In this document: piece after piece, positions 42,161 to 42,931 of the stretch
Numbering within the stretch: position 1 is the stretch's first letter
Layout of the letters: the number at the start of each line of letters is the position of its first letter
Assembly (NCBI RefSeq): GCF_027921745.1
Contig: NC_079238.1
Span: 3,720,001 to 3,784,000, forward strand
Direction of reading: 5' to 3'
Length of the DNA stretch: 64,000 bases
DNA from: Schizosaccharomyces osmophilus
Lineage: Eukaryota
The notes under the pieces: generated by a model
Told to the model about the DNA's origin: nothing
Database searches by the model: none
What the model saw: only the letters and a program-made list of their open reading frames with translations
Translations under genes and position numbers: made by a program

Positions 42161-42931
42161 ATGGACCAAGAGTTATTTAAAAACCCATTTGAAGTTGCTC
42201 CACCATCTGATGATTCTTTTGCATCCTTAGAAAAATTCACTTATGAATTGGTGGGGGCAGTTCCCCAAAAGAAGTTCAATAGATTCAGAAGCAAGCTGAT
42301 CAACCTCTACAAAGCACTTGCATCTAAACTAGAAGAAGAGGCTCCTCCACAAGATGATATGTCTGAAATTCGAGAGATGCTTCAAGACTTAAGAGAAGAC
42401 ATGTCTCAAGAGCTTAATGAAAAGTTAGGTAGCCTCAGAAAAGATGTCGAGAGCATGAAAAAAGAACTACAATCAGTGGATGCACAAATGCAATTTGTTG
42501 ATACCAATTCTAGAGGATATTATATTGATATTACCTCAAAAATCAAGGAAAATAATTCCGAGATAAACAAGGCAAGAACCTCAGCACAGAGATCGGAAAA
42601 CACTGTAAACAGAGTTATTTTCAAAGATACAAAGCCAGTTCCATTTATCAATGGACAAAAAACTCCTTCTGAACTGCCTGAATTAAGAGTTATTTCTGAC
42701 ATTGATAATTTGAATCCAAGCCAACTAAAAACATACCTGGAGGGATATGGTGGTAAGTATGAAGATAAAGAACCTCAGGCATCTCTTAAAAGAAAGCTTG
42801 CAGATCACGTTGGTTTTGTTACGTCCGAAGATTCCCGTTACGAGTTCTCAGACAATAATGAACCCCTTTCTAAATATGCCAAATCGGTACACCAAACCGA
42901 AGGTGAAGAGTCATGCTCCATCAAAGGTTGA
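42161..42931 (+). CDS. Mug2/Mug135(Tdk1)/Meu23-family protein: coiled-coil stalk plus DUF1773/Mug135_C-like C-terminal domain
   Basis: 256-aa intronless ORF with heptad-rich aa ~65-145. The C-terminus N..R....PVPFINGQ.TP..LPEL..ISDIDNL....LKTYLEGYG......E....LKRKLADHVG resembles the recalled family motif. Confidence 0.72.
   Translation: MDQELFKNPFEVAPPSDDSFASLEKFTYELVGAVPQKKFNRFRSKLINLYKALASKLEEEAPPQDDMSEIREMLQDLREDMSQELNEKLGSLRKDVESMKKELQSVDAQMQFVDTNSRGYYIDITSKIKENNSEINKARTSAQRSENTVNRVIFKDTKPVPFINGQKTPSELPELRVISDIDNLNPSQLKTYLEGYGGKYEDKEPQASLKRKLADHVGFVTSEDSRYEFSDNNEPLSKYAKSVHQTEGEESCSIKG

What the first reader, a model, noticed from the sequence alone, without database searches (positions are those of the whole stretch)
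42161..42931. Tdk1/Mug135-family gene between two 5S copies: candidate single-protein toxin-antidote driver
Seen: an intact 256-aa intronless ORF with an N-terminal domain, a long coiled coil and a C-terminal PVPFING..LP....DIDNL...YLEGYG...KRKLADHVG domain. A forkhead/FLEX core (TGTTTAC, 41932-41938) lies ~220 nt upstream. Established: this layout resembles the mug2/meu23/mug135 family, whose member Tdk1 kills non-carrier spores through the bromodomain protein Bdf1. Inference: meiotically (Mei4) expressed candidate driver or suppressor. The family call is from remembered motif similarity only, and I cannot exclude that it is one of the previously reported wtf-associated (wag) genes.
Basis: partly seen in the sequence, partly recalled or inferred. 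Interest (0 to 1): 0.85.

Follow-up and report, generated by a model that had tools for sequence, protein, structure and literature searches.

The report
Known non-driving tdk305 spore-killer relative
This is tdk305, an already catalogued fission-yeast relative of the offspring-killing gene tdk1 that showed no drive in a published cross and is likely a disarmed copy, ordinary apart from sitting among 5S rDNA copies next to a wtf gene.

Summary
The ORF is real (42161-42931, 256 aa) and the family call is right: Pfam Mug135_C 52.9 bits against a cut-off of 23.8, and the only significant PDB sequence and fold matches are Tdk1. But the gene is already in print. Its two ends, the neighbouring wtf gene and two 5S genes map with one 3,720,000-base offset onto Schizosaccharomyces osmophilus SOMG_01707, named tdk305 by Zhang et al. 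(PMC12930445). They tested it in S. pombe under the tdk1 promoter: 76 carriers to 70 non-carriers, P = 0.68, no drive. Its syntenic copies are pseudogenes in two sister species. The Bdf1-binding stretch of Tdk1 is not conserved (1 of 23 residues), and the FLEX core is uninformative (11 of 22 ORF starts in the window have one). 'Between two 5S copies' holds only with a decayed downstream remnant. Best reading: a non-killing tdk copy, likely resistance-only or decaying. Still open: drive in its own host, and a side result that I did not find in print: 6 of 15 S. osmophilus tdk loci lie within 1.5 kb of a same-strand 5S gene, as wtf genes do.

The parts
42161..42931 (+). tdk305 (SOMG_01707), intact 256-aa tdk/Mug135-family ORF
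   Evidence: coordinates match the published tables with a 3,720,000 offset
42161..42334 (+). N-terminal region (residues 1-58), two predicted helices; aligns with the Z-shaped domain region of Tdk1 and Tdk210
   Evidence: P15 invariant and N8 nearly invariant in 14 sequences
42344..42349 (+). PP dipeptide (residues 62-63) in the loop before the stalk helix
   Evidence: the alignment does not put it in the same column as Tdk1's PP
42362..42616 (+). Predicted stalk helix / coiled coil (residues 68-152); residues 111-133 stand where Tdk1 binds Bdf1 but match it at 1 of 23 positions
42629..42817 (+). Mug135_C / IPR013902 domain (residues 157-219)
   Evidence: PF08593 E 4.6e-14, 52.9 bits; Foldseek to 9JA6 and 9JA5
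41932..41938 (-). FLEX/forkhead core GTAAACA, 222 nt upstream; present but not diagnostic
41549..41667 (+). Intact 5S rRNA gene, about 494 nt upstream of the ORF
   Evidence: Rfam RF00001 105.6 bits; SOMRRNA_41
43093..43185 (+). Decayed 5S remnant, about 160 nt downstream of the ORF, same strand
   Evidence: nhmmer E 9.4e-5, blastn 24 of 26 identical; not found by Rfam, not in the published rRNA table
39728..40798 (+). wtf14 (SOMG_01706), intron-containing wtf-family gene between the two upstream 5S genes
   Evidence: published table; first-exon translation agrees with osmo_wtf21 in PMC9562144's supplement
39094..39222 (+). 5S rRNA copy with two 5-base insertions (likely a pseudogene)
   Evidence: Rfam 70.7 bits and alignment; SOMRRNA_40

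Best explanation
[quoted passage not shown] Shown here: identity, domain, predicted fold, loss of Tdk1's Bdf1-binding sequence, and the order 5S - wtf14 - 5S - tdk305 - 5S remnant on one strand. Shown in print: no drive under the tdk1 promoter, and loss of the syntenic copies in two sister species. Inferred: it lies on the path the authors describe (active driver, then resistance-only allele, then pseudogene); at most it would neutralise the toxin form of close relatives by co-assembling with them; and it likely reached this site by recombination between dispersed 5S genes, as proposed for wtf.
For: Identity: 771 bp, + strand, both ends at window + 3,720,000; wtf14 and both 5S genes fit the same offset; the protein's contig has the same length as that of two named S. 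osmophilus genes. No drive: 41 tetrads, 146 of 164 viable, 76 carriers to 70 non-carriers, P 0.679; 95% interval for the carrier share 0.44-0.60, against 43:2 for tdk210 and 75:38 for tdk203 in the same set-up. Base rate: 2 of 21 homologs tested that way drove. Its two nearest named S. osmophilus relatives in my tree, tdk302 and tdk313 (one clade, support 96/99), were also negative (42:44, 51:51). Syntenic tdk501 and tdk601 are pseudogenes; 49 of 93 family loci are. Precedent for resistance without killing: Tdk1-HT3, tdk11, reconstructed tdk315.
Against: The test used one promoter, one locus and a foreign host, and the authors warn that this can miss drive; tdk203 killed far better under a stronger promoter, and the strain and tetrad tables show tdk305 only under P.tdk1. 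The ORF is intact, and so is tdk401 at the same length in a diverged lineage. Non-carrier survival was a little lower (70 of 82 against 76 of 82; Fisher P 0.21). No resistance or self-binding test of tdk305 was found, so 'resistance-only' is untested. I matched the gene by coordinates and did not see the paper's own tdk305 sequence.
Confidence: 0.72

Rival explanations
1. tdk305 is an active driver in its own host or at higher dose, killing through a host factor other than Bdf1 that S. pombe lacks or has changed.
For: All predicted parts are present; intact in two diverged S. osmophilus lineages; its clade is separated from Tdk1 and Tdk210 by a long branch (1.25 changes per column) and the paper's Clade B has only non-pombe genes and recent expansions; tdk drivers switch host factors; only the tdk1 promoter was tried.
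Against: 76:70 result; the two active non-pombe drivers worked well in S. pombe and their toxic forms even in budding yeast; tdk304 and tdk605 stayed inactive under a strong promoter; syntenic copies have decayed.
Confidence: 0.18
2. It is a Mei4-induced Tdk1-like killer that binds Bdf1.
For: C-terminal domain 28 of 74 identical to Tdk1; a FLEX core 222 nt upstream, and tdk1 has one 116 nt upstream.
Against: 1 of 23 identities over Tdk1's Bdf1-interacting region, at best 3 of 23 over 15 register shifts; no drive in S. pombe, where Bdf1 is present, under the Mei4-driven tdk1 promoter; motif upstream of 11 of 22 ORFs.
Confidence: 0.03
3. It has been domesticated for a host function unrelated to drive.
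For: Intact ORF at an internal, syntenic site in two lineages.
Against: Pseudogene in S. lindneri and S. octosporus and absent from the set in S. cryophilus and S. pombe; single-member orthogroup in the reference annotation.
Confidence: 0.05
4. It is a wtf-associated (wag) gene.
For: It lies next to a wtf gene and 5S genes.
Against: wag genes lie between the wtf gene and its upstream 5S, on the opposite strand; this ORF is downstream on the same strand, has PF08593, and the tdk paper labels wag and tdk separately. No wag sequence was compared directly.
Confidence: 0.01

Closest known systems
tdk305 / SOMG_01707 (Zhang et al., PMC12930445)
   Same: The same gene by length, strand, both coordinates and flanking features.
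   Different: Nothing found; the paper's main text does not mention the 5S context.
S. pombe Tdk1 (Mug135; PDB 9JA5, 9JA6; PMC11551393, PMC11551426)
   Same: Mug135_C domain (33 of 87 identical), stalk helix before it, N-terminal motif.
   Different: Shorter (256 against 357 aa); Bdf1-interacting region not conserved; no drive in the published test.
S. cryophilus Tdk210 (active, Bdf1-independent driver)
   Same: Same layout, similar length; 39 of 142 identical over stalk and domain.
   Different: Outside tdk305's clade; drives 43:2 where tdk305 gave 76:70.
tdk302, tdk313 and S. cryophilus SPOG_05736, SPOG_04983, SPOG_03641, SPOG_03593
   Same: About 50% identical over most of the length; one clade with support 96/99; tdk302 and tdk313 also showed no drive.
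   Different: tdk305 lacks most of the short repeat they carry in the stalk and has its own C-terminal tail.
5S rDNA-associated wtf/wag units (De Carvalho et al., PMC9562144)
   Same: Gene in tandem with same-strand dispersed 5S copies.
   Different: wtf is an unrelated, intron-containing family with two protein products; here the downstream 5S is only a remnant.

Membership tests
tdk family (IPR013902 / PF08593) | C-terminal Mug135_C domain above the curated cut-off | tested here: met
   52.9 bits against 23.8, residues 157-219
tdk family (IPR013902 / PF08593) | Sequence and fold similarity to Tdk1 | tested here: met
   phmmer E 1.5e-11 and 1.9e-10; the only 2 of 29 Foldseek matches with E <= 0.001 are 9JA6 and 9JA5
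tdk family (IPR013902 / PF08593) | Long helix directly before the domain | tested here: met
   Predicted helix 68-152, block pLDDT 66-90
tdk family (IPR013902 / PF08593) | [quoted passage not shown] | tested here: met
   PP at 62-63 in the loop between helices 37-58 and 68-152; not in the same alignment column as Tdk1's PP
tdk family (IPR013902 / PF08593) | N-terminal Z-shaped domain | tested here: inconclusive
   Sequence aligns (P15 invariant, N8 nearly so) and two helices are predicted, but pTM is 0.38 and no superposition was made
tdk family (IPR013902 / PF08593) | Listed in the family's published inventory | tested here: met
   tdk305 = SOMG_01707, intact
Active tdk killer meiotic driver | Kills non-carrier progeny in a heterozygous cross | not testable with these tools
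   Published heterologous test was negative: 76:70, P 0.679; no native-host test found
Active tdk killer meiotic driver | Self-interaction and protection of carriers | not tested
   No fold of the oligomer was obtained and no published test of tdk305 was found
Tdk1-type, Bdf1-dependent driver | Bdf1-interacting region (Tdk1 233-255) conserved | tested here: not met
   1 of 23 identical, BLOSUM sum -12; Bdf1-independent Tdk210 scores 3 of 23
Tdk1-type, Bdf1-dependent driver | Mei4/FLEX-driven meiotic up-regulation | tested here: inconclusive
   Core motif present but upstream of 11 of 22 ORFs; expression could not be examined
wag family | Between a wtf gene and its upstream 5S, divergent from wtf | tested here: not met
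   ORF is downstream of wtf14 on the same strand
wag family | Sequence similarity to wag proteins | not tested
   No wag sequence was retrieved

The most novel reading that the evidence does not exclude
tdk305 and its long-branched, non-pombe clade are host-specific drivers that S. pombe tests miss because they use a target other than Bdf1, and they spread by riding 5S-flanked cassettes as wtf genes do; this locus would then be a two-family drive cluster (wtf14 plus tdk305) built by repeated 5S-mediated insertion.
Probability: 0.12. Interest if true: 0.6.

Novelty: already known. Interest (0 to 1): 0.15.

Why it matters
As it stands it matters little: the gene is named, its family characterised and its drive test published as negative. 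Two points keep some value. First, tdk305 belongs to a clade of intact, recently expanded genes with no known driver, tested only in a species that lacks the clade; a native cross would tell whether they are disarmed or host-specific. Second, if tdk genes use dispersed 5S genes as landing sites, then a second, unrelated driver family shares the dispersal route described for wtf, which would make 5S arrays general nurseries for selfish genes in these yeasts.

Tried and rejected
No whole genome was held for this window, so genome-wide work used published coordinate tables. Expression: no RNA holder listed among 14 runs; this says nothing either way. Reads were laid for 4 of the 14 runs and again for 2 of them; all are contigs. 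Rfam at E 10 did not report the downstream 5S remnant; its three other matches (E 7.3-9.4) were dismissed as chance. Coiled-coil Pfam matches, all below their cut-offs, four weak PDB sequence matches (E >= 0.096) and 27 weak Foldseek matches (E >= 2.5) were dismissed. No second tdk-like sequence in the window. The overlapping 121-aa ORF 42747-43112 has no Pfam match and was taken as chance. The FLEX core was rejected as evidence. One row (P0020) was left out of the tree because the anchor motif was not found; most inner branches of that tree are unresolved (9 of 11 open). The tree file in the preprint's supplement was cut and unreadable, so placing tdk305 in the paper's Clade B is my inference. 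No oligomer model was obtained. Three look-ups in earlier scan findings returned nothing.

Full report
Observation. AlphaFold2 on a 6-sequence alignment predicts two N-terminal helices, a loop with PP at 62-63, an 85-residue helix and a compact C-terminal domain, with a disordered tail; mean pLDDT 71.4, pTM 0.38. The title's '5S on both sides' is only partly true. Rfam finds two 5S genes in the 64 kb, at 39094-39222 and 41549-41667, both upstream, and between them lies a wtf gene. A third, decayed copy lies at 43093-43185: nhmmer with the intact copy gives E 9.4e-5, and its local score of 48 stands above all background windows (at most 25; 508 window-strand scores in all), but Rfam does not report it at E 10. 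The order on one strand is: 5S with insertions, wtf, intact 5S, this ORF, 5S remnant.

Family. Pfam Mug135_C scores 52.9 bits against a cut-off of 23.8. The only significant matches among solved structures, by sequence (2 of 6 listed) and by fold (2 of 29), are the Tdk1 entries 9JA5 and 9JA6. The closest proteins are S. cryophilus and S. osmophilus Mug135-domain proteins at about 50% identity; a wider search gave 40 proteins at E <= 0.001, including a Tdk1 construct and Tdk210.

Identity. Zhang et al. (PMC12930445) list S. osmophilus tdk305 = SOMG_01707 at chr1 3762161-3762931, +, 771 bp. Both ends equal the window coordinates plus 3,720,000. The reference annotation (PMC10085805) puts wtf14 at 3759728-3760798 and 5S genes at 3759096-3759220 and 3761553-3761667, which fit the same offset; the frame at 39728 begins like osmo_wtf21 in PMC9562144's supplement; and the protein's contig has the length of the contig of two named S. 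osmophilus genes. I did not see the paper's tdk305 sequence, so the match rests on coordinates and context.

Function in print. tdk305 was one of six extra genes tested, and none drove. Under the tdk1 promoter at ade6 in S. pombe, 41 tetrads gave 146 of 164 viable, 76 carriers and 70 non-carriers, P 0.679. I compute a 95% interval of 0.44-0.60 for the carrier share, and P 0.21 for the survival difference; tdk210 gave 43:2 and tdk203 75:38 in the same design. Of 21 homologs so tested, 2 drove. Of the syntenic set, tdk401 is intact and tdk501 and tdk601 are pseudogenes. Against over-reading this: the authors warn that foreign expression can miss drive, strength of drive depends on dose, and tdk305 appears in their strain and tetrad tables only with P.tdk1.

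Bdf1 and Mei4. Tdk1 binds Bdf1 through residues 233-255 (PMC11551393). Anchored on the conserved domain, the matching stretch of this protein (111-133) shares 1 of 23 residues, at best 3 over 15 shifts; Tdk210, which kills without Bdf1, shares 3. So Bdf1 binding is unlikely, though lack of it does not rule out killing. The FLEX core is there, as in tdk1 (PMC11551426), but GTAAAYA occurs 37 times in the window and within 500 nt upstream of 11 of 22 ORF starts; tdk210 and tdk203 have no Mei4 site and still drive.

Clade. In a tree of 14 domain sequences, tdk305 groups with tdk302, tdk313 and four S. cryophilus proteins (support 96/99, branch 1.25), apart from Tdk1 and Tdk210; most other branches are unresolved. 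tdk302 and tdk313 were also negative; two of the S. cryophilus proteins match tdk222 and tdk223 by length only. This is probably the paper's Clade B, the one with only non-pombe genes and, by elimination, no active driver; I could not see the figure or the tree file, so this is inference.

Mechanism. From the family's biology: Tdk proteins self-assemble through the stalk and C-terminal domain, are harmless when newly made, turn toxic in spores, and are neutralised by fresh copies of themselves or of close relatives. Alleles that lose killing but keep protection are known (Tdk1-HT3, tdk11, reconstructed tdk315). The most likely state of tdk305 is such a non-killing copy, resistance-only or simply decaying (0.72). 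A native-host or dose-dependent driver is the main rival (0.18).

Side result on 5S. Using the published coordinates of 15 S. osmophilus tdk loci and 102 annotated 5S genes, 6 of 15 loci lie within 1.5 kb of a 5S gene (tdk302, 303, 304, 305, 310, 313), all 6 on the same strand; 7 of 15 within 2.5 kb and 8 of 15 within 3.5 kb; the other 7 are more than 8 kb away. Random placement gives a mean of 0.48 at 1.5 kb; shifting each locus within 100 kb gives 1.0 (P 0.00025) and within 25 kb 2.0 (P 0.0075); counted as clusters it is 5 of 11 (P 0.0015 and 0.010). The tdk310 locus on chr2 mirrors this one: a 125-bp 5S, about 2.5 kb, a 115-bp 5S, then tdk about 0.5 kb later. In run X1, three other contigs at about single-copy depth join 5S-like to tdk-like DNA, one of them also sharing the flank 41754-41812, and one contig does so in run X6; the shorter sides are only 29-59 bases and what lies between is not known, so this is a hint. 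Limits: the null does not exclude coding DNA; the link may be indirect, since the preprint already notes that wtf and wag genes often flank tdk loci and 33 of 42 S. osmophilus wtf genes are 5S-associated; I chose the thresholds after seeing part of the table; remnants are not in the table. I found no statement of a tdk-5S link: the preprint's main text has no 'rDNA', 'rRNA', 'ectopic' or 'recombination', and one search gave a single paper whose passages concern hsp16. Figures, and the assembly paper cited as in preparation, were not seen and may show it.

What I read. PMC12930445: main text parts 1-5 of 8, passages, supplement file 2 whole, file 6 part 4 of 5, file 7 part 1 of 2, file 1 parts 1-2 of 3, a term search of all 7 files. 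PMC11551426: part 1 of 8 and passages. PMC11551393: passages. PMC9562144: passages, section 10, and a search of 12 of 44 supplement files; its table of wag neighbours for wtf21 was not seen. PMC10085805: passages and supplement rows and parts 129-130. 10.64898/2026.01.24.701316: passages. PMC11648849 and PMC11497594: search listings only. A search for 'tdk305' returned only the preprint.

Verdict. Already known; the family call is right and the driver inference has a published negative result. Interest 0.15. The most novel reading not excluded, a host-specific driver clade that spreads on 5S cassettes, has probability about 0.12 and would deserve about 0.6.

Noticed in passing
window 39094-43185 and published S. 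osmophilus tdk and 5S coordinates: 6 of 15 tdk loci lie within 1.5 kb of an annotated 5S gene, all on the same strand, above local-shift nulls; tdk310 on chr2 repeats this locus's 5S-gap-5S-tdk spacing. Not found stated in the papers read.
   Followed up: partly
window 39094-39222: 5S copy with two 5-base insertions; the published rRNA table has several 120-129 bp copies and loose ends in other runs show a similar insertion, so this may be a dispersed variant class.
   Followed up: no
window 41932-41947 and 39389-39404: The FLEX core and its next bases match at 15 of 16 positions between the spacer before tdk305 and the spacer before wtf14 (E 0.17); may be chance or a shared element after 5S genes.
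   Followed up: no
window 39728-40798: wtf14 (syntenic with wtf21 of another isolate) sits 1.4 kb upstream of tdk305; whether it is a full driver or antidote-only was not examined.
   Followed up: partly
window 43434-44024 (-): 196-aa ORF with no Pfam match and no exact record in the protein collection; possibly one exon of a spliced gene.
   Followed up: partly
window 15306-30248 (-): A single 4980-aa ORF, not examined.
   Followed up: no
whole window: GTAAAYA occurs 37 times against 21.6 expected from shuffles.
   Followed up: no
proteins P0009, P0011, P0013, P0015, P0016, P0017, P0018: Several short annotated proteins match mainly the N-terminal part of tdk305, and those carry no Pfam domain; likely fragments of tdk pseudogenes.
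   Followed up: no
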